Shown here: one piece after another, positions 34,670-43,041 of the stretch | How positions within the stretch are numbered: position 1 is the stretch's first letter | How the letters are laid out: each line of letters starts with the position of its first letter | Source of the DNA: Spirochaetaceae bacterium | GTDB lineage: Bacteria > Spirochaetota > Spirochaetia > DSM-2461 | Assembly: GCA_051531975.1 (NCBI GenBank) | Contig: JAOPTT010000006.1 | Span: 462,977 to 526,976, forward strand | DNA: 64,000 nucleotides | Direction: 5' to 3' | Translations under genes and position numbers: made by a program | The notes under the pieces: generated by a model | What the model saw: the letters and a program-made list of their open reading frames with translations, nothing else | Told to the model about the DNA's origin: nothing | Database searches by the model: none

Positions 34670-34699
34670 AATAAAAAGATGCCTAGGCACCTTTTTATT
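34670..34699 (-). terminator. Terminator after alaS
   Basis: Minus strand aataaaaagg-tgcc-ta-ggca-tctttttatt at the stop codon. Confidence 0.7.
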
Positions 34700-36479
34700 A
34701 TTTTAATACACCTTTTATTCTTCTAACACCAGCAGAAGATGATTGCTCTTTTTTTATTTTAAATGTTCCAAGAGAACCTGTATTTTCCATATGAGGACCA
34801 CCACATACTTCTAAACTAAAATCCCCCATCTGGTAAACTTTAACTTGCTCTCCGTACTTACTAGAGAAAAGAGCCATTGCACCTCTCTCTTTTGCTTGTT
34901 CAACAGTCATAGTTTCCATGGAAATTTTATGATTATCAGAAATTGCTTTATTAACCATATCTTCTACAGATTTTATCTGCTCTGGAGTCATTTTTTCAGG
35001 ATGACTAAAATCAAACCGTAAACGTTCAGATGTGATATTACTACCTTTTTGATTGACATGATCACCAAGAATAACTTTTAGAGCTTTATGAAGCAGATGT
35101 GTTGCAGTGTGATATTTTGTGGACATTTCAGAATCATCAGCTAATCCACCTTTAAATATTTTGTCGGCACCTTTTTTTGACATCTCTTTATGTTTTAGAA
35201 ATGCTTTATCAAAACCATCCCTATCAACTGTCATACCCTCTTCCTTAGCTAACTCTTCAGTTAATTCTAAAGGGAATCCATATGTATCAAAGAGATTAAA
35301 TGCTACCCTACCTGGGATTATCATTTTAGGGTTTCTTTTTAAGTTTGGCAGTAGTTTTGCAAATTCAGCTTCACCTTTTTTTAGTGTTAAACCAAATTTA
35401 TCCTCCTCAGCTTCGAAAACTGAGAATATAAATGATTTTTTCTCTAATAATTCAGGATACTGGTCTTTATACATTTCTATTACCATATCTGAAGGTTTAG
35501 AAATAAACTTGCCCTCTAATCCAAGTTTTTTTCCATGTCTAATTGCTCGTCTAAGTAGTCTTCTAAGAATATAACCTTGCCCTACATTAGAAGGTTGCAC
35601 ACCTTTCTCGTCTCCAATAATAAAAGTTGATGTTCTTATATGATCACAAATAATTCTAATTGACATATCAGTTTCTTCATCTGTTCCATATGTTTTTCCA
35701 CTTAGATCTTCTATTAATTTTATTAAAGGTTGGAAAAGAACAGTTTCATAGACAGATTTTTTTCCTTGTAACATAGTAATGGTTCTTTCAACACCCATTC
35801 CAGTATCAACACAAGCTCGTTCCATAGGGACAAAAGAACCATCTTCTTGCTTGTTATATTGCATAAATACGTTATTCCAAATTTCAAAATATTTACCACA
35901 ACTACAACCTGGTATACATTCACTTGAACATGCATCAATACCAGTATCAATAAACATTTCTGTATCAGGACCACAAGGACCAGTAGCTCCAGCAGGACCC
36001 CACCAGTTATCACTTTTGGGTAGTTTATATATTTTATTATCAGGTATACCTAGCTCTTTCCAATACCCTATAGATTCATCATCACAGGGTGCATCATCAT
36101 CGCCCTTAAAAACTGTTACTGATAACTTATCAATATCTATTCCAATAACATCTTTTAAGAAGTGGTAACTCATATTTATTGCTTCTTTTTTAAAATAGTC
36201 TCCTAATGACCAGTTACCTAACATCTCAAAAAAAGTTAAATGTGTAGCATCACCAACATCATCAATGTCACCTGTTCTAATACATTTTTGAACATTAGTT
36301 AATCTTTTACCTGAAGGGTGTTCTTCTCCTAAAATAAAAGGTACTAGAGGGTGCATTCCAGCAGTAGTGAAAAGAACTGTTGGATCGTTCTCTGGGATTA
36401 ATGATTTACCAGAGATCTCTTTGTGGTTGTTAGAGACAAAAAACTCAATATATTTTCTTTTTAATTCCTGTATATTCAT
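34698..36479 (-). CDS. alaS: Alanine--tRNA ligase, short form lacking the C-Ala domain
   Basis: DPTVLFTTAGM, FFEMLGNWS, DTGMGVER, HTATHLLH, EVCGGPH; ends at GVRRIK. Confidence 0.98.
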   Translation of the reverse strand: MNIQELKRKYIEFFVSNNHKEISGKSLIPENDPTVLFTTAGMHPLVPFILGEEHPSGKRLTNVQKCIRTGDIDDVGDATHLTFFEMLGNWSLGDYFKKEAINMSYHFLKDVIGIDIDKLSVTVFKGDDDAPCDDESIGYWKELGIPDNKIYKLPKSDNWWGPAGATGPCGPDTEMFIDTGIDACSSECIPGCSCGKYFEIWNNVFMQYNKQEDGSFVPMERACVDTGMGVERTITMLQGKKSVYETVLFQPLIKLIEDLSGKTYGTDEETDMSIRIICDHIRTSTFIIGDEKGVQPSNVGQGYILRRLLRRAIRHGKKLGLEGKFISKPSDMVIEMYKDQYPELLEKKSFIFSVFEAEEDKFGLTLKKGEAEFAKLLPNLKRNPKMIIPGRVAFNLFDTYGFPLELTEELAKEEGMTVDRDGFDKAFLKHKEMSKKGADKIFKGGLADDSEMSTKYHTATHLLHKALKVILGDHVNQKGSNITSERLRFDFSHPEKMTPEQIKSVEDMVNKAISDNHKISMETMTVEQAKERGAMALFSSKYGEQVKVYQMGDFSLEVCGGPHMENTGSLGTFKIKKEQSSSAGVRRIKGVLK

Positions 36480-36512
36480 GAAAAATATAATACAATAAAT
36501 AATAGTTTTTTA

Positions 36513-37634
36513 TCAATAGATCCAATCATCATCACCAAGGATTCTGAGTTCTCCAGATTCTTCTTTATTTCTAATTAAATTTATAAAATCTTTAGTCATG
36601 CGATCAGCATCACTTTTTTTAACAAGTCCAAGGATTTCCATTTCAGCTTCTACTAAAAGCCTTCGACCTTCAGACATAGCACCCCAGATTCGCCCTTGAA
36701 TATCCTTTGATTCACCTTTAATCAAAAAAACTAAATCTTGGTCTGTAATTTCTTGAATTATTTTTTGAAAATCAATAGGTTCAATATTATAAATTATATC
36801 AATCGTATATAACCTGTCTCTAATGGTTTCTCCTAAATCAGGATCAGAACTTTCAATATGTTGTAATATATTGTCTTCAGATGATCTATCCATATGTTTT
36901 AGAATATCTGCTAATGCCCCTCTACCATCTAATTCCACACTATCTGTATTTCCCATCTTAATAATTTTTTCAGTTAAACTTTCAGAAATGATACTAATTA
37001 CTTGTGGGCTTACTTGTTTTAATTTTGACATTCTTAAAACAATTTCTTTTTGTTGATCTGGTGGTAACGATTCAATTATAGGGGAAGAATATATTGGAGA
37101 TAAATGATGTAAAACTATAGTTAAGACTGAAACACTCTCTTTTCGTAATACCATCATTCTTTGAGTGAAATCTAAATCATTTAAAAATGCAAACGGTTTA
37201 TCAGCACTATCAGGAACAGCTTTATATAATAGTTCATTACCTTTATCCTGGCCAAATGCTGAAATTAAAATACTTCTAGCAGTTTCAACCCCACCTTGGT
37301 TTCTATTATATGCAGTACTATCTTTACCAAACTCTTGTAAAAGTAGATACGCCTCACTTTTACCAACTCTATCAATCTTGGTGATTTCCATTGATACTTT
37401 TTCAATTTCATTTGGTGGCAAGTGTGATATAACTTTCGAAGCTTCATCTGTACCTAAAATCAAAAGTAATTTTGCAACTTTTGTATATTTATTTTCTTCT
37501 TTTGTAGTTTTTATTAAACCTTGTTTAGGTTGTGGGGTTTTATGGATTACAGGTGTTTCTAAAGGATCAGTTTTAACTAGTGATCCTGTAGAAACTGATT
37601 TATATGCCTGAATACCTCTTTTATACTGATTCAT
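36513..37634 (-). CDS. fliG: Flagellar motor switch protein FliG paralog (FliG1-like)
   Basis: KVAKLLLILG, GGVETARSIL, PFAFL, GRGALADILKHMD. Divergent, and outside any flagellar operon. Confidence 0.85.
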   Translation of the reverse strand: MNQYKRGIQAYKSVSTGSLVKTDPLETPVIHKTPQPKQGLIKTTKEENKYTKVAKLLLILGTDEASKVISHLPPNEIEKVSMEITKIDRVGKSEAYLLLQEFGKDSTAYNRNQGGVETARSILISAFGQDKGNELLYKAVPDSADKPFAFLNDLDFTQRMMVLRKESVSVLTIVLHHLSPIYSSPIIESLPPDQQKEIVLRMSKLKQVSPQVISIISESLTEKIIKMGNTDSVELDGRGALADILKHMDRSSEDNILQHIESSDPDLGETIRDRLYTIDIIYNIEPIDFQKIIQEITDQDLVFLIKGESKDIQGRIWGAMSEGRRLLVEAEMEILGLVKKSDADRMTKDFINLIRNKEESGELRILGDDDWIY

Positions 37635-37704: not shown

Positions 37705-37717
37705 TATATTCGTAAAT

Positions 37718-37790
37718 GCCGCTGTAGCTCAGTCGGTAGAGCAGGGGACTGAAAATCCCTGTGTCAAGAGTTCAAGTCTCTTTGGTGGCA
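37718..37790 (+). tRNA. tRNA-Phe(GAA)
   Basis: GCCGCTGTAGCTCAGTCGGTAGAGCAGGGGACTGAAAATCCCTGTGTCAAGAGTTCAAGTCTCTTTGGTGGCA; anticodon GAA; followed by TCA rather than CCA. Confidence 0.96.
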
Positions 37791-37792
37791 TC

Positions 37793-37828
37793 AAGAGTTA
37801 AAAGATCTAATCTTTTAACTCTTTTTTT
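37793..37828. terminator. Hairpin between tRNA-Phe and the convergent operon
   Basis: aagagttaaaagat-cta-atcttttaactctt followed by a T-tract on the plus strand; overlaps the stop of the convergent gene. Confidence 0.7.
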
Positions 37829-39015
37829 ATGTACTTTATAATTGCAGGAGTAAGTCTCTTAACAGTTTCTTCGATGAGTTCCCTGGAATTATCAATAGAA
37901 TAATCTTGCACTTCAACCTGAGGAACGATAGGATCTCCCATACCAACAAGTCCCATTAAAAGAGAATCAGTACCACTAGAACTACCTGAAGAATGATTTG
38001 CTGCTGCTTTTAATAGGCTAGTTAACTCACTTTCATCAGGATTAATAATTAAATCACCTTCATCATTTTTATAATTCTCAGCTTCTTGTTGTAATAAAAA
38101 ATCATCACCTGCATCAAAAGAGTCAATAATTAACTGTATAATCTGCATATCTTTAGCAAATACAAAACCCATATAAAATATAATTACTGTTAAAATAACT
38201 AAAAGAGTTGTTAATAACGACAACATAATACTATTTAAATAATCAGTAATTTGACCCTGTTCCATTATTATTCCAGTTATTGGAAGTATTAAATTATCAA
38301 TAGGTGAATATACGCCCTCTTCTATCTGCATAATAAGATAAGTATCTAATTCACTGCTTATTAGATCAGATATAATAGAATAGTCAGTAATCTTTTGTCC
38401 TTCCCTAGAAAAGAGTATAGAGTCATTTGTATAAAACAATATATCTTTTCGATTTTTAACTAACGTTAGGATTTCTCCATTGGCTGCAATATAATCAGAT
38501 TCCAAAATTCTAGATTCTTGCATCTGTAGACTACTTGTTGCTTTATTATCTATAACGATAATCCCTACAACAAATATCATTACTATTGTGACACCAATTT
38601 TCATAATTCTATCTTGGATCCAAATAGAGTCTGATTTCATCTTTTTTAAGAAACTAAAAACTCTTAAAAATCTAAGTATTCTTATTATTTTAAAGAAACG
38701 TCCAACCTTAATAATCTTAAAAACTGCAAATAGTGGTGTATTATCTAAGAAGAAAAATATTCCTGGGAGACTGGCTAAAAAGTCCACCCAACCATAACCT
38801 TTAGTTAGATATAATATAGGTTTATAGCTGATTATTCTTAATGCAAAATCAAAAACGAATATTACCGAAATAATTTTATTAGGTAATAAGACATAGGCTT
38901 TCAGAAAAGTATATTCACAAAACAGACCTATTATAGATATTATTATAAGAAAAGGATTAATTATATCTAAAATTTTTACAATATTTTTAAAATTATCTCT
39001 AGGATGTATAACCAT
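37807..39015 (-). CDS. Voltage-sensor-domain (Ion_trans S1-S4) membrane protein without a pore loop
   Basis: S2 F-x-x-D-x-x-x-R (IFVFDFALR), S3 WVDFLASLP, S4 KxxKxxRxxKxxRxxRxxR; then TM, ~105-aa soluble loop, TM, and a cytoplasmic tail. Confidence 0.8.
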   Translation of the reverse strand: MVIHPRDNFKNIVKILDIINPFLIIISIIGLFCEYTFLKAYVLLPNKIISVIFVFDFALRIISYKPILYLTKGYGWVDFLASLPGIFFFLDNTPLFAVFKIIKVGRFFKIIRILRFLRVFSFLKKMKSDSIWIQDRIMKIGVTIVMIFVVGIIVIDNKATSSLQMQESRILESDYIAANGEILTLVKNRKDILFYTNDSILFSREGQKITDYSIISDLISSELDTYLIMQIEEGVYSPIDNLILPITGIIMEQGQITDYLNSIMLSLLTTLLVILTVIIFYMGFVFAKDMQIIQLIIDSFDAGDDFLLQQEAENYKNDEGDLIINPDESELTSLLKAAANHSSGSSSGTDSLLMGLVGMGDPIVPQVEVQDYSIDNSRELIEETVKRLTPAIIKYIKKELKD

Positions 39016-39032: not shown

Positions 39033-40205
39033 CTAAGATCTATAATCATTTTGAAAGATATCTTTTACAGATATCAAATCTTTTTTATTTGACATAAAAC
39101 GCTTTATTGCATTTTGAACTTCTAAGGACTCACTTTTATATGAAGATATTTTTCTAGAAGCAATACTTATAGCATTTTGAACTAATAATTGTCTTCTATT
39201 ATCTGCACTATATAACTTTTCTAGTTTCAACCTTTGTTCTAAAGGACTATTGTGATATTTAGCTGAAATTTCAAATATTTGAGCAGCTAATATAACAGAA
39301 AAAGTATGAGCAAAAAGCATAGCAACATAATAAACACTTCGAACACGACCAATTCTATCAGTTATAAATGCTTCTAAATTAGAGCTTAGATTAAGATTAC
39401 TTGTTTGGGCTGTAGTAGAACCATGAAATAAAATATAGAAGCCCATATATGTAAATATTTCTTGAGCATCATCCCCTCTTTGACTAATAAAAAAAGTCAT
39501 GAAATCTGTCAGAAAGTCAATAAATTTCTTATTGTTTCTACCTAGACAGAGTGCTAATACTTGTGGATTAATACGTCTTTTTTTAATTGCATCGGTAATT
39601 ATTGATGAAACAGCATCTTCATTAATACTTTTACCATTAATTTTTTTAATATTATGAGCATTTAGGTTAAATGCCTTTACTGCTAATTGGTATAGTTCAG
39701 TTGGATAATCGATATCTTCATTAACTATACTATTAGATGTGTTATTTGTTGAAGAATTACTAAGCTGATTTATCTTTATAAGATTGTAATATAGCAGTAC
39801 ATCATTAGAACTTAACCCAATAGATTCTTTTATTAATGTATCCATTATATGTTTCTGTTTTATACTATCAAGTTTAACTAAATCTAATCCTTCTAAGTGG
39901 GATCTAAAAATATCTTTATTAATCAAAATTTTCTCTTCTGGTAAAAATGAAGAGAGCTGTTCTTCCGTTGTTATATCTCTACTAAAACCTCGACTTAATA
40001 ACATTGGTTGACTTATATCTGCATTATTATTCCCACTCTCTCTACATTTATTGTTCCAAATATCTTGAAATAATTTATATGAACTTTTGCTGTCACCTGG
40101 AAGAATTGTTGCAATTTTTTTAAATAATTGTTCAGCGCTTATCTTTTCACTTAATATAGAGTCAGTTAAATAACTTCCTAATTGGACAATATCTTTCTTA
40201 TCCAT
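39033..40205 (-). CDS. Hypothetical protein (390 aa, likely soluble and helical)
   Basis: Long ORF translationally coupled (TAATG) to the kinase gene; no recognised motif. Confidence 0.75.
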   Translation of the reverse strand: MDKKDIVQLGSYLTDSILSEKISAEQLFKKIATILPGDSKSSYKLFQDIWNNKCRESGNNNADISQPMLLSRGFSRDITTEEQLSSFLPEEKILINKDIFRSHLEGLDLVKLDSIKQKHIMDTLIKESIGLSSNDVLLYYNLIKINQLSNSSTNNTSNSIVNEDIDYPTELYQLAVKAFNLNAHNIKKINGKSINEDAVSSIITDAIKKRRINPQVLALCLGRNNKKFIDFLTDFMTFFISQRGDDAQEIFTYMGFYILFHGSTTAQTSNLNLSSNLEAFITDRIGRVRSVYYVAMLFAHTFSVILAAQIFEISAKYHNSPLEQRLKLEKLYSADNRRQLLVQNAISIASRKISSYKSESLEVQNAIKRFMSNKKDLISVKDIFQNDYRS

Positions 40206-42166
40206 TAAGCTTTTAATAAAATTCTGAATTCACAGAATTTCCCTACTGAAGATTTAATATTTAGTTTACCACCTGCATTATCTACATAATTTTTTATCAC
40301 ATTCATACCTACCCCTTGCCCTGCGAGATTATCAATATCATCTACTGTTGAAAACCCAGGGTTAAATATTAACTTAACTGCATCAGAAGACTTTAATTTT
40401 CTTGCTATTTCTACTGTTATTATATCTTTTTTTATAGCAGATTTAACAATTTTATTAAGATTTAAGCCTCTTCCATCATCTCTATAGATAAATTCTAATA
40501 CATTTTCCTTCTTTTTTAAAGAAATAAATATCTTTCCAGTAGGTTCTTTACCTTTTGAAAATCTTTCTTCAACATCTTCTATACCATGAGCAACAGAATT
40601 TCTAACAAATTGGTTTATAGAATCTTTGAATAATCTCCTATATTTTTCTGGAATTAATTTATTATCATATTGTGTTACATCTAGCTCTAACTCTCTATTA
40701 TATTCAACACCTAGTCGAACTAAAGATTTTTTTAATGACTCTTCAAAAATATATTTTTTATTTTTTATCTCTCCGCCAGCTTGTCCTTTGAAAGCAATAA
40801 TTTTTTCAATTAAAACATTAATTCCATCTAAATCATGTTTTAAATCTGCTAAATTAACTGTTAGTTTTAAAAGTTCACGCCATGTTGGTTTAGTATTACG
40901 TAATTCTTTAATATAGTCTTCAAAATCTTTTAGTTTATTTGCAATAGTTTTTAACCCTAATAACATAGCGTTACCTTTAATACTATGAACAGATGCAAAA
41001 ATATGGTTTATCAATTTACTGGTTTCATTAGTTTCAACTTTAAGGAAATCGTTTATTATACTTATTTCATCATGAGAATCTTTTAAAAATTCTTCCATTA
41101 GCTCTGGGTTAACATGGATTATTTGGAATAAACTTTCCATATTTTTTAAACTTTCATTTTCCTCTCTTGTTAACCGTTCTTCTAATAATACTTGAGTTGT
41201 AACATCTTTAAAAAGACCTAATATCTGTATCTCTCCATTTTTTAATAATATTCTTTCAAAATTGAATTCTAACCAAACTTGTGATTTCTCTGCATTTTCA
41301 CCATCGAAGTTCATTAATACTTTTTCAATTGGGTTAATTGAAGTTAAAAGTGTTGGATTAACTGTTTTATTATAAAACAATTCTAGATAATCTTTAGTTG
41401 CAATATAATCCCTTTGTGGGAGTTTACCTTTAATCAATTCCATAAAAGAATGGGATACAGTTGTTGATCCAAAAAGATTATTAAAATATGTTGATCGTTC
41501 ATCTGCTAAATTTAGATTTTCATCCAATAAAAATATACCCTGTTTAACATTATTTAATATCATAGTAGTTTGTCGTCTTTTAGCTACGAGGTTATCTGAA
41601 GTTTGCTCTAATTTATTAAATGCTTGAATACGTATTAATTCAAACGCAACAGTAAAAAGAGTTACTCCAATATATGCTCCGATAGCCCTACCACCCATTG
41701 CGACATTAACAGGGAGAGCTTCTAAACCAGTAATTTTAAATATAAGGAAATATGCTAGAATTCCAAAAATGAGGGTTAAAATGGATCCATGGATAATTCC
41801 AAGAAAAAATATCGATACTAACGGGAATAACATGATCCAAAAATAACCAGCTTTTTCTGATCCACTAGTGAATATCAACAACGCAAACAGTGTAAAAGCA
41901 ATATAACTTACATAAGTAGTACCTATTATTAGTTTTTTTGTTATGCCTACTAAAATTATAGAAATAGTTATTGTTATGGCTGTGATCCCTGTGAAAATTG
42001 AAATCAGGTAGGATTCCTCTATTATATCAACGACTGTAAAAGTTATTAAAATGATAACACTTATTAACGAAATACTACTTAAAACGGCACTTCGAGATCT
42101 TTCTTTTAAACCAGAATTTTCGGTACAACCAATATATAAAAATGATAAAAATGGATTCTTTTTCAC
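40205..42166 (-). CDS. Membrane-anchored CheA-like histidine kinase (TM region, PAS-like, Hpt, HATPase; no CheW domain)
   Basis: About 6 TM helices; ILNNVKQGIFLLD; Hpt VHSIKGNA; VRNSVAHGIE, DDGRGL, IFNPGFST, GQGVGM. The protein ends right after the ATPase domain. Confidence 0.88.
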   Translation of the reverse strand: MKKNPFLSFLYIGCTENSGLKERSRSAVLSSISLISVIILITFTVVDIIEESYLISIFTGITAITITISIILVGITKKLIIGTTYVSYIAFTLFALLIFTSGSEKAGYFWIMLFPLVSIFFLGIIHGSILTLIFGILAYFLIFKITGLEALPVNVAMGGRAIGAYIGVTLFTVAFELIRIQAFNKLEQTSDNLVAKRRQTTMILNNVKQGIFLLDENLNLADERSTYFNNLFGSTTVSHSFMELIKGKLPQRDYIATKDYLELFYNKTVNPTLLTSINPIEKVLMNFDGENAEKSQVWLEFNFERILLKNGEIQILGLFKDVTTQVLLEERLTREENESLKNMESLFQIIHVNPELMEEFLKDSHDEISIINDFLKVETNETSKLINHIFASVHSIKGNAMLLGLKTIANKLKDFEDYIKELRNTKPTWRELLKLTVNLADLKHDLDGINVLIEKIIAFKGQAGGEIKNKKYIFEESLKKSLVRLGVEYNRELELDVTQYDNKLIPEKYRRLFKDSINQFVRNSVAHGIEDVEERFSKGKEPTGKIFISLKKKENVLEFIYRDDGRGLNLNKIVKSAIKKDIITVEIARKLKSSDAVKLIFNPGFSTVDDIDNLAGQGVGMNVIKNYVDNAGGKLNIKSSVGKFCEFRILLKA

Positions 42167-42184
42167 TTATGTTACATCCTTTAA

Positions 42185-42655
42185 TTACTTTATGATATTT
42201 TCTAAACCTACTGATACATAAAAAATCCCCTCAGAGAGTTCAAAAGGAATTGTTATTATTGGAATATTACTTGAGGGCCATGCTATTTTATGTGATGTCC
42301 CTTGCACAATTGATGGAAGAGAAATAACTAGTCTAAATTGTTCTAAACCTTTCTTAGCATTTCCTGCAATAATATTAACAACTTCTCCTGTAGAATCAAT
42401 TACATCATCATCAATATCTAGTATATCATAACCAACTAACTTCTGGGTTAACATAATAATTAGTTCTTTTGGAAAACTTAATGTTATGACACCTTTAGTC
42501 TCTCCTGCAATTCCAATAACTGCCGAAAGATCCCATCCTAAATCCTCTTCTTTACTAAATAGAAATGGATTTTTCATTATTGGTGTTTCATTATAAAATT
42601 CTTTAAAAATATTAATTGTAGCCTCAATAAAAGGTTCAATGTATTTTGTATCCAT
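42185..42655 (-). CDS. cheX: Chemotaxis phosphatase CheX
   Basis: YIEPFI, SAVIGIAG, active-site GEVVNIIAGN, ISLPSIVQG. Confidence 0.92.
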   Translation of the reverse strand: MDTKYIEPFIEATINIFKEFYNETPIMKNPFLFSKEEDLGWDLSAVIGIAGETKGVITLSFPKELIIMLTQKLVGYDILDIDDDVIDSTGEVVNIIAGNAKKGLEQFRLVISLPSIVQGTSHKIAWPSSNIPIITIPFELSEGIFYVSVGLENIIK

Positions 42656-42663
42656 GAGCTGTC

Positions 42664-43041
42664 CTACCTTATAGTATCTAATACCTGTGTTATTTTATTT
42701 ACTAAATTACCTTCGCCTAATGGCTTTATTAAATAGTCGTTAACTCCTGCTTTAACAGCTTCTATTACATTATATTTTGCTGCTTCAGAAGTGATCATGA
42801 TTATAGGAAGTTTAGAATATTTTGCCATTGCTCTAAGTTCTTTTACAAGATCAAGACCATTTAAGTGTGGCATATTCCAATCAACAAGTAAGATGTCTAT
42901 TATTTCTCTTTCTAATATATTAAAAGCGTCTATTCCATTAGATGCTTCTACAAATTCAAAAGAATAAGATTTGCTTTGTAATAGTGTATTTTTTACAATA
43001 CTACGCATTATCCGGGAATCATCAACAACTAATACTCTCAT
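42664..43041 (-). CDS. cheY: Single-domain CheY-like response regulator
   Basis: VVDDSRIMR, LVDWNMP, PIIMITSE, GVNDYLIKP. Confidence 0.9.
   Translation of the reverse strand: MRVLVVDDSRIMRSIVKNTLLQSKSYSFEFVEASNGIDAFNILEREIIDILLVDWNMPHLNGLDLVKELRAMAKYSKLPIIMITSEAAKYNVIEAVKAGVNDYLIKPLGEGNLVNKITQVLDTIR

What the first reader, a model, noticed from the sequence alone, without database searches (positions are those of the whole stretch)
37807..39015. Pore-less voltage-sensor domain fused to a TM-periplasm-TM-HAMP-like receptor module
Seen: S4 has seven basic residues at every third position (FKIIKVGRFFKIIRILRFLR), with the S2 Phe/Asp/Arg and S3 Asp counter-charge positions intact. Where a channel has S5-pore helix-filter-S6, this protein has a TM, a ~105-aa hydrophilic loop and a TM, with no TxGYG or TLESW filter. 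After the last TM, DMQIIQLIIDSFDAGD...ESELTSLLKAAAN resembles the two HAMP helices; a Ser/Gly linker and a short terminal helix follow. Established: pore-less VSDs are known mainly from eukaryotes (VSP, Hv1). Inference: a non-conducting bacterial voltage receptor with no catalytic output of its own.
Basis: partly seen in the sequence, partly recalled or inferred. Interest (0 to 1): 0.8.

Follow-up and report, generated by a model that had tools for sequence, protein, structure and literature searches.

The report
Pore-less bacterial voltage sensor with partner
A marine spirochaete makes a membrane protein that keeps the complete voltage-sensing half of a nerve-type ion channel but has a receptor-like outside domain where the pore should be, and it is inherited with an unknown partner gene, so it probably reports membrane voltage rather than conducting ions.

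Summary

The HAMP idea is not supported.

New here: a 390-aa all-alpha protein of no known family (39033..40205) sits immediately upstream in 17 of 18 related loci. It co-occurs with the sensor in 9 of 9 family-bearing genomes among 401 sampled Spirochaetota.

In this genome the pair ends a cheY-cheX-cheA-like operon.

Best reading (about 0.55): a non-conducting voltage receptor signalling through that partner. Conduction, oligomeric state and binding are untested.

I found no description in print (five searches). The scan noted the same kind of protein before on another genome (e1-6752815).

The parts
37807..39015 (-). Whole gene: 402-aa pore-less VSD protein (P0001)
   Evidence: ORF and translation; 80 homologs at E<=1e-3, all named ones Spirochaetota
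38641..38997 (-). Voltage-sensor domain S1-S4 (residues 7-125)
38641..38721 (-). S4 helix with seven basic residues at every third position (residues 99-125)
   Evidence: Sequence; basic in 80 of 80 homologs at all seven positions
38548..38640 (-). Short S4-TM5 link and TM5 (residues 126-156), highly conserved
   Evidence: Model helix starts at 131 after a 5-residue break. Mean majority fraction is 0.72, with invariant M126, S130, Q134, M138, G141 and V145. Hydropathy peak at 135-163.
38230..38547 (-). Periplasmic alpha/beta domain in place of pore helix and filter (residues 157-262)
   Evidence: Model has H182-188, E192-197, E200-203, H213-220 and four more strands, pLDDT 77-89. It is the least conserved folded part, 0.35. 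It is absent in L017, L018, G005, P0110 and P0111.
38158..38229 (-). TM6 (residues 263-286)
   Evidence: Model helix 254-302; hydropathy 259-293; G283 invariant, F280 and Y281 nearly so
37981..38157 (-). Conserved acidic cytoplasmic helices after TM6 (residues 287-345); HAMP-looking but not HAMP
   Evidence: Invariant A287, D289, L295, D298, S299, A302, L307, E311, E330 and L334. 13 D/E vs 3 K/R. HAMP tests negative.
37894..37980 (-). Disordered Ser/Gly-rich linker of variable length (residues 346-374)
   Evidence: pLDDT under 50 for 346-378; linker runs from about 30 to over 200 columns in the family
37810..37893 (-). Conserved basic C-terminal helix (residues 375-402)
   Evidence: Model helix 375-401; consensus AVKxxTPxIxxYIKKxL kept across the family
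39033..40205 (-). Partner gene: 390-aa all-alpha protein of no known family (P0122)
   Evidence: Directly upstream in 17 of 18 family loci, with gaps of -4 to +18 nt. Co-occurs in 9 of 9 family genomes of 401. No Pfam, NCBIfam or PDB sequence match. Model pLDDT 85.5.
40205..42166 (-). CheA-like kinase (MASE6 membrane domain, Hpt, HATPase_c); its stop overlaps the partner's start
   Evidence: Pfam and NCBIfam; TAATG overlap; this synteny is shared only with L012
42185..43041 (-). CheX phosphatase and CheY receiver genes upstream in the same orientation
   Evidence: Pfam CheX 2.2e-20, Response_reg 9.7e-27

Best explanation
The gene encodes the membrane half of a two-gene, Spirochaetota-restricted voltage-sensing module. 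Shown: a canonical, fully charged S1-S4 voltage sensor joins through a very short link to a conserved TM5/TM6 hairpin. The loop of that hairpin is an optional periplasmic alpha/beta domain instead of a pore helix and filter. TM6 continues into conserved acidic cytoplasmic helices, a disordered tether and a conserved basic terminal helix. No enzymatic domain is present. A 390-aa all-alpha protein of unknown family is co-inherited, nearly always immediately upstream. Inferred: S4 moves with membrane potential (down at the strongly negative resting potential, up on depolarisation or loss of proton-motive force). This movement is passed to TM5/TM6 and the cytoplasmic helices, as S4 drives the enzyme in voltage-sensing phosphatases or as TM2 drives the cytoplasmic module in two-helix receptors. 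That changes how the cytoplasmic part engages the partner protein, which is the output. In this genome the pair is the distal end of a cheY-cheX-cheA-like operon, so the output may feed motility behaviour here. That link is lineage-specific.
Confidence: 0.55

Rival explanations
1. It is an unconventional voltage-gated channel or transporter. TM5/TM6 of several subunits would form a pathway without a classical P-loop, or ions would pass through the VSD itself as in Hv1 or omega currents. The 390-aa protein would be a cytoplasmic auxiliary subunit.
For: TM5 and TM6 are highly conserved, with invariant G141, G283 and V145 and nearly invariant G151 and D156. NCBI's automatic name for relatives is 'ion transporter'. 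Kv channels do have cytoplasmic beta subunits (established knowledge).
Against: No pore helix or filter is seen in sequence, profile or model. The TM5-TM6 loop varies from almost none to about 115 aa and is poorly conserved. S1 has no mid-membrane acidic residue; S27 and G30 sit there, whereas Hv1 needs one (recalled knowledge).
Confidence: 0.2
2. It is a pore-less regulatory subunit that co-assembles with, or modulates, a genuine channel, in the manner of silent Kv subunits. It would lend or tune voltage dependence.
For: In 4 of 17 loci whose neighbours were scanned (L005, L007, L008, L011), a complete cyclic-nucleotide-binding 6TM K+ channel with a TTIGYGD filter lies directly upstream of the partner gene on the same strand.
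Against: This genome has no other VSD-bearing channel; its only other Ion_trans match is pore-only, on another contig. The channel neighbour is confined to one clade. The VSD of that neighbouring channel is only 24 % identical over 82 aa to the family protein.
Confidence: 0.1
3. It is mainly a periplasmic-ligand receptor. The alpha/beta domain would bind a signal, and the VSD would be only a membrane anchor or a modulator.
For: The TM-periplasmic domain-TM-cytoplasmic helix layout is that of sensor kinases and chemoreceptors. The top whole-chain Foldseek row is the WalK model 9a5d (E 0.02, not significant). The language-model look-up lists sensor-kinase and HAMP clusters at 0.83-0.85, which are leads only.
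Against: The periplasmic domain is the least conserved folded part (0.35) and is absent in several members, while S4 and its counter-charges are kept in 80 of 80. No Cache or PAS family is detected.
Confidence: 0.1

Closest known systems
Voltage-sensing phosphatases (Ci-VSP / TPTE)
   Different: No phosphatase or any enzyme domain. Two extra TM helices and a periplasmic domain follow S4. The presumed effector is a separate gene product. The protein is bacterial.
Voltage-gated 6TM cation channels (Kv, NavAb/NaChBac, CNG/SthK type; Pfam Ion_trans PF00520)
   Same: Homologous S1-S4 with the charge-transfer centre and seven S4 charges. Six TM helices in all.
   Different: Homology ends at the start of S5. 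There is no pore helix or selectivity filter. An alpha/beta periplasmic domain replaces the P-loop. The S4-TM5 link is very short.
Two-helix bacterial sensors (sensor histidine kinases such as WalK, chemoreceptors): TM1-periplasmic PDC/Cache-like domain-TM2-HAMP
   Same: The second half has the same layout, TM-alpha/beta periplasmic domain-TM-cytoplasmic helices. The WalK model is the top, non-significant Foldseek row.
   Different: No HAMP, kinase or MCP signalling domain. The N-terminal VSD is foreign to these receptors. The periplasmic domain was not searched alone, so its fold class is an inference from its secondary-structure order.
Hv1 proton channel and SLC9C1 (VSD-regulated Na+/H+ exchanger)
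   Different: No transporter domain. No mid-S1 acidic residue of the Hv1 type (the Hv1 feature is recalled). Seven rather than three S4 charges.

Membership tests
[quoted passage not shown] | Four-helix antiparallel S1-S4 bundle | tested here: met
[quoted passage not shown] | S4 with basic residues at every third position | tested here: met
   Seven positions (100-118), basic in 80 of 80 homologs
[quoted passage not shown] | Charge-transfer centre: S2 Phe and acidic residue, S3 Asp | tested here: met
   F53, D56 and D78 (plus R60, E34) are kept in 80 of 80. They are aligned to the Kv2.1 S2/S3 equivalents.
[quoted passage not shown] | Pfam PF00520 score above the gathering cut-off (25 bits) | tested here: inconclusive
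   The six-frame search of the genome gives 44.4 bits, E 2.6e-11, positions 5-140/241. hmmscan of the protein gives no family even at E<=10. 23 of 27 aligned homologs hit PF00520.
Tetrameric 6TM voltage-gated cation channel | Re-entrant pore helix and selectivity filter between S5 and S6 | tested here: not met
   An alpha/beta domain sits in that position. There is no filter motif in the loop. PF00520 positions 141-241 are unmatched. hhalign to channels ends at A1 position 143.
Tetrameric 6TM voltage-gated cation channel | Tetrameric assembly around a central pore | not testable with these tools
HAMP domain (Pfam PF00672) | Sequence-profile match to HAMP | tested here: not met
   0 of 27 members at E<=0.01. 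None of the 70 genome matches lies on the gene. Nothing at E<=10 for six proteins. hhalign vs 12 HAMPs of the same genome gives probability 0.28 %, with 20 columns of the second helix only.
HAMP domain (Pfam PF00672) | Conserved Pro at the start of the first helix just after TM2, with a ~14-residue connector | tested here: not met
   P is invariant in the 12 genome HAMPs. Here TM6 runs on as one helix to 302 with no Pro (FAKDMQIIQ), and the gap to the next long helix is about 17-27 residues.
Cache/PDC-type periplasmic sensor domain | Long N-terminal helix, then an alpha-beta-beta-alpha-beta-beta-beta core between two TM helices | tested here: inconclusive
   The secondary-structure order in the model fits. 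No Pfam Cache/PAS hit was found, and the domain was not folded and searched by itself.
Voltage-sensing phosphatase | PTEN-like phosphatase domain after S4 | tested here: not met
   No phosphatase family in Pfam or NCBIfam
Class I cyclic-nucleotide phosphodiesterase / HD fold (for the partner protein) | Conserved His/Asp metal ligands | tested here: not met
   No His, and only D382 among Asp, in columns at least 80 % identical in 29 sequences
Class I cyclic-nucleotide phosphodiesterase / HD fold (for the partner protein) | Fold similarity to the PDE catalytic domain | tested here: inconclusive

The most novel reading that the evidence does not exclude
Bacteria possess a dedicated membrane-voltage receptor. 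A seven-charge VSD drives, through a receptor-type TM hairpin and acidic cytoplasmic helices, a novel all-alpha partner protein. In this lineage the signal is wired into a CheA-like/CheY/CheX pathway, giving direct voltage (energy) taxis without any ion flux.
Probability: 0.35. Interest if true: 0.85.

Novelty: new variant of a known kind. Interest (0 to 1): 0.7.

Why it matters
Voltage-sensor domains that act without a pore are known from a few eukaryotic proteins (VSP, Hv1, SLC9C1). How bacteria read their own membrane potential is an open question, usually answered indirectly through redox or PAS sensors. This family offers a compact candidate: a fully charged, strongly conserved VSD coupled to a receptor-style module and a dedicated partner. 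A cultured relative, Thiospirochaeta perfilievii, carries both genes. That makes direct voltage sensing in bacterial signalling testable by gating-current recording, pull-downs and genetics. It also shows that the automatic label 'ion transporter' is probably wrong for this family.

Tried and rejected
**Complex prediction.**
The verdict was 'no answer': scores 0.30, 0.34 and 0.21 against a mark of 0.32.
- This is neither support for binding nor evidence against it.

**HAMP.** Rejected as a membership claim.

**Partner protein.**
- No Pfam or NCBIfam family.
- No PDB sequence match at E<0.1.
- No Foldseek match.
- The Atlas gave no usable hit.

**Fused forms.**
- A search among proteins of 705-2010 aa found none. 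That is weak evidence.

**Expression.**
- No RNA holder was listed for the locus.

**Chemotaxis and FliG link as a general feature.**
- Rejected. Only L012 shares the HrpA-CheY-CheX-CheA-like and FliG synteny.
- A convergent tRNA-Phe separates the gene from fliG.

**Bacteroidota and other loci L020-L035.**
- Of the eleven inspected (L019, L021-L023, L025, L026, L028, L029, L032, L034, L035), the nine from L021 to L034 are ordinary K+ channels with T(V/I)GYGD or TVGFGD filters.
- L019 is a sister pore-less form. L035 gave no meaningful ORF.

**Other attempts.**
- Promoter and terminator scans were at chance level: 84 promoter-like sites found against 84.6 expected.
- Atlas part search: apart from the family's own three clusters, only sub-0.9 leads.

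**Literature.**
- Five searches returned no paper on a bacterial pore-less VSD family.
- Of the 2025 VSD review PMC13661669 I saw six passages. None mentions bacterial non-channel VSD proteins.
- All other papers were seen only as search listings with the start of the abstract. No supplements were read.

Full report
**1. The observation.**
- The ORF at 37807..39015 on the minus strand encodes 402 residues.
- Residues 99-118 read FKIIKVGRFFKIIRILRFLR, with basic residues at 100, 103, 106, 109, 112, 115 and 118.
- S2 carries F53-x-x-D56-x-x-x-R60 and S3 carries D78. These align with the F-x-x-E-x-x-x-R of S2 and the Asp of S3 in Kv2.1.
- I aligned all 80 homologs returned. All seven S4 positions are basic in 80 of 80, and E34, F53, D56, R60 and D78 are kept in 80 of 80.
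They lie in the cytoplasmic S2-S3 loop at the start of S3, not between TM5 and TM6, and T71 is not conserved.

**2. A real voltage-sensor domain.**
- An AlphaFold2 model built on a 27-sequence alignment has mean pLDDT 76 and pTM 0.63. It shows helices 7-34, 39-63, 75-91 and 105-125.
- The family profile hits Kv2.1 in the PDB at E 3.6e-6 over profile positions 14-118 only.
- A six-frame search of the genome with PF00520 hits the gene at 44.4 bits (cut-off 25), covering model positions 5-140 of 241.
- hmmscan of the protein itself returned no family. 23 of 27 aligned homologs do hit PF00520. I report both results and cannot explain the difference with certainty.

**3. No pore module.**
- As a positive control I aligned six real channels: four cyclic-nucleotide-binding 6TM channels from related loci, plus P0117 and P0121. 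All carry T(T/V)GYGD.
- Profile-profile comparison with the family gives probability 96.9 %, E 1.8e-10. The alignment covers family positions 3-143 only and ends at the start of TM5.
- In the model, TM5 (from 131) extends into the periplasm to 177. Then come a helix, two strands, a helix and four strands (182-252, pLDDT 77-89), and then TM6 (254-302).
- This loop is the least conserved folded region (majority fraction 0.35, against 0.78 for S4).
- It is 87-115 aa in most members, but nearly absent in L017, L018, G005, P0110 and P0111.
- A selectivity filter would not tolerate that variation.
- Conduction itself was not and cannot be tested here.

**4. The cytoplasmic part and HAMP.**
- TM6 runs on into a conserved acidic segment (consensus FAKDMxIVQLIIDSxDAxDYxLLxxEA...EDEIxSLLK; 13 D/E against 3 K/R).
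- A disordered linker of very variable length and a conserved basic terminal helix follow.
- The HAMP reading fails every test I could run.
  - No member of 27 hits PF00672.
  - The genome has 70 HAMP matches, none on this gene.
  - A profile of 12 HAMPs from the same genome aligns with only 20 columns at probability 0.28 %.
  - The Pro that is invariant at the start of those HAMPs is absent here.
- The second half does have the layout of two-helix bacterial sensors. The WalK model is the top, non-significant Foldseek row (E 0.02).

**5. The conserved partner.**
- The ORF immediately upstream (39033..40205, 390 aa) has relatives directly upstream of the sensor gene in 17 of 18 family loci from other genomes.
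- The intergenic gaps run from -4 to +18 nt. Here the gap is 17 nt, with a GGAGAG site before the ATG.
- The exception, L013, has an HflX-like GTPase upstream.
- In an even sample of 401 Spirochaetota genomes, 42 matched the sensor profile at E<=1e-10.
  - Only 9 had matches reaching beyond the VSD: G000, G264, G244, G078, G059, G057, G005, G368 and G350.
  - The partner profile matched 10 genomes: exactly those 9, plus a contig-end fragment in the 80 %-complete G105.
  - The two genes are adjacent on one strand in 7 of the 9, and on different contigs in G244 and G264.
- Both genes are single-copy here.
- The partner has no Pfam, NCBIfam or PDB sequence match.
- Its model is all-alpha with pLDDT 85.5. 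Foldseek finds nothing.

**6. Context in this genome.**
- HrpA, CheY, CheX, a CheA-like kinase (MASE6-Hpt-HATPase_c), the partner and the sensor all lie on the minus strand.
- The kinase's stop codon overlaps the partner's start codon.
- After the sensor comes a convergent tRNA-Phe, then a FliG paralog, one of three FliG_C matches in the genome.
- Only the closest locus, L012, shares this synteny.
- Elsewhere, the gene upstream of the pair is a cyclic-nucleotide-binding K+ channel (4 loci), a 5TMR-LYT/PAS histidine kinase (2 loci), or something unrelated.
- The chemotaxis link is therefore local. Only the two-gene pair is general.

**7. Mechanism.**
- Shown: the anatomy, the strict conservation of the voltage-sensing residues, the lack of a pore module and of any enzyme domain, and the co-inheritance with the partner.
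- Inferred:
  - S4 movement with membrane potential is passed through the very short S4-TM5 link and the conserved TM5/TM6 hairpin to the acidic cytoplasmic helices.
  - This changes their engagement with the partner, whose many conserved basic residues include K316, K327, K330, R337, K357 and K368.
  - The tethered basic terminal helix may compete for, or latch, this interaction. That step is speculation.
- I put this reading at about 0.55.
- Rivals: an unconventional channel (0.2), a pore-less modulator of real channels (0.1), and a ligand receptor in which the VSD is secondary (0.1).

**8. Relatives and caveats.**
- The family is small: 64 representatives at E<=1e-3 among 1.84 billion, and about 38 at E<=1e-30. 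All named members are Spirochaetota.
- Five divergent relatives have degenerate S4 helices. They sit inside the family on long branches in a VSD tree of 36 rows that I chose (family split supported 99/99).
- Two other pore-less groups appeared. One is L019/P0120/P0116, with a more HAMP-looking tail but no Pfam HAMP hit. The other is the short P0109/P0112/P0113/P0118/P0119 type. In both, PF00520 matches cover only the first ~140-160 model positions.

**9. Novelty.**
- Five full-text searches returned nothing on such a bacterial family.
- Six passages of a 2025 review on VSD diversity list only eukaryotic non-channel uses.
- Earlier notes of this scan describe the same kind of protein on other genomes (e1-6752815, e1-931121). 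I saw them after forming my reading, and they are not independent evidence.

Noticed in passing
window 40205..43041 (-): A CheA-like kinase carries an N-terminal MASE6 membrane domain, Hpt and HATPase_c, but Pfam finds no CheW-like domain. CheX and CheY precede it. Its stop codon overlaps the start of the partner gene (TAATG). It looks like a membrane-anchored, receptor-independent CheA variant.
   Followed up: partly
window 37717..37823: tRNA-Phe (GAA) lies on the plus strand, convergent with the sensor gene. It is followed by a 14-pair hairpin (37793..37823) that overlaps the sensor's stop codon and has a T-run on the plus strand. This is probably the tRNA's terminator, and it separates the sensor gene from fliG.
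   Followed up: partly
window 34698..37634 (-): A FliG paralog (373 aa, one of three FliG_C matches in the genome; the best match is on another contig) lies next to a short 593-aa alanyl-tRNA synthetase. From memory this resembles the fliG1-alaS arrangement of Borrelia; that was not tested here.
   Followed up: partly
L005:5292-6599, L007:5435-6742, L008:5292-6599, L011:5398-6726: In one spirochaete clade, a complete cyclic-nucleotide-binding 6TM K+ channel (Ion_trans, Ion_trans_2, cNMP_binding; TTIGYGD filter) lies directly upstream of the partner-sensor pair on the same strand.
   Followed up: partly
L019:7791-8900; P0120, P0116; P0109, P0112, P0113, P0118, P0119; P0115: Other pore-less VSD architectures exist. 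One is a spirochaete sister family, VSD-TM-periplasmic domain-TM with a HAMP-looking tail (no Pfam HAMP hit). A second is a short 277-320 aa type ending soon after the second extra TM. A third is a tandem of two VSD-plus-hairpin units. PF00520 covers only the VSD half in each.
   Followed up: partly
P0096, P0106, P0110, P0111, P0114: These divergent family members have lost most S4 charges. Two also lack the periplasmic domain. All keep the motif after TM6 and the terminal helix, and they sit on very long branches within the family.
   Followed up: partly
window 37810..39015 (protein P0001): hmmscan against Pfam returns no family for this protein, even at E<=10. The six-frame genome search with PF00520 scores the same stretch at 44.4 bits. 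A speed or bias filter probably drops it, which may explain why close relatives are left as 'hypothetical protein' in some annotations.
   Followed up: no
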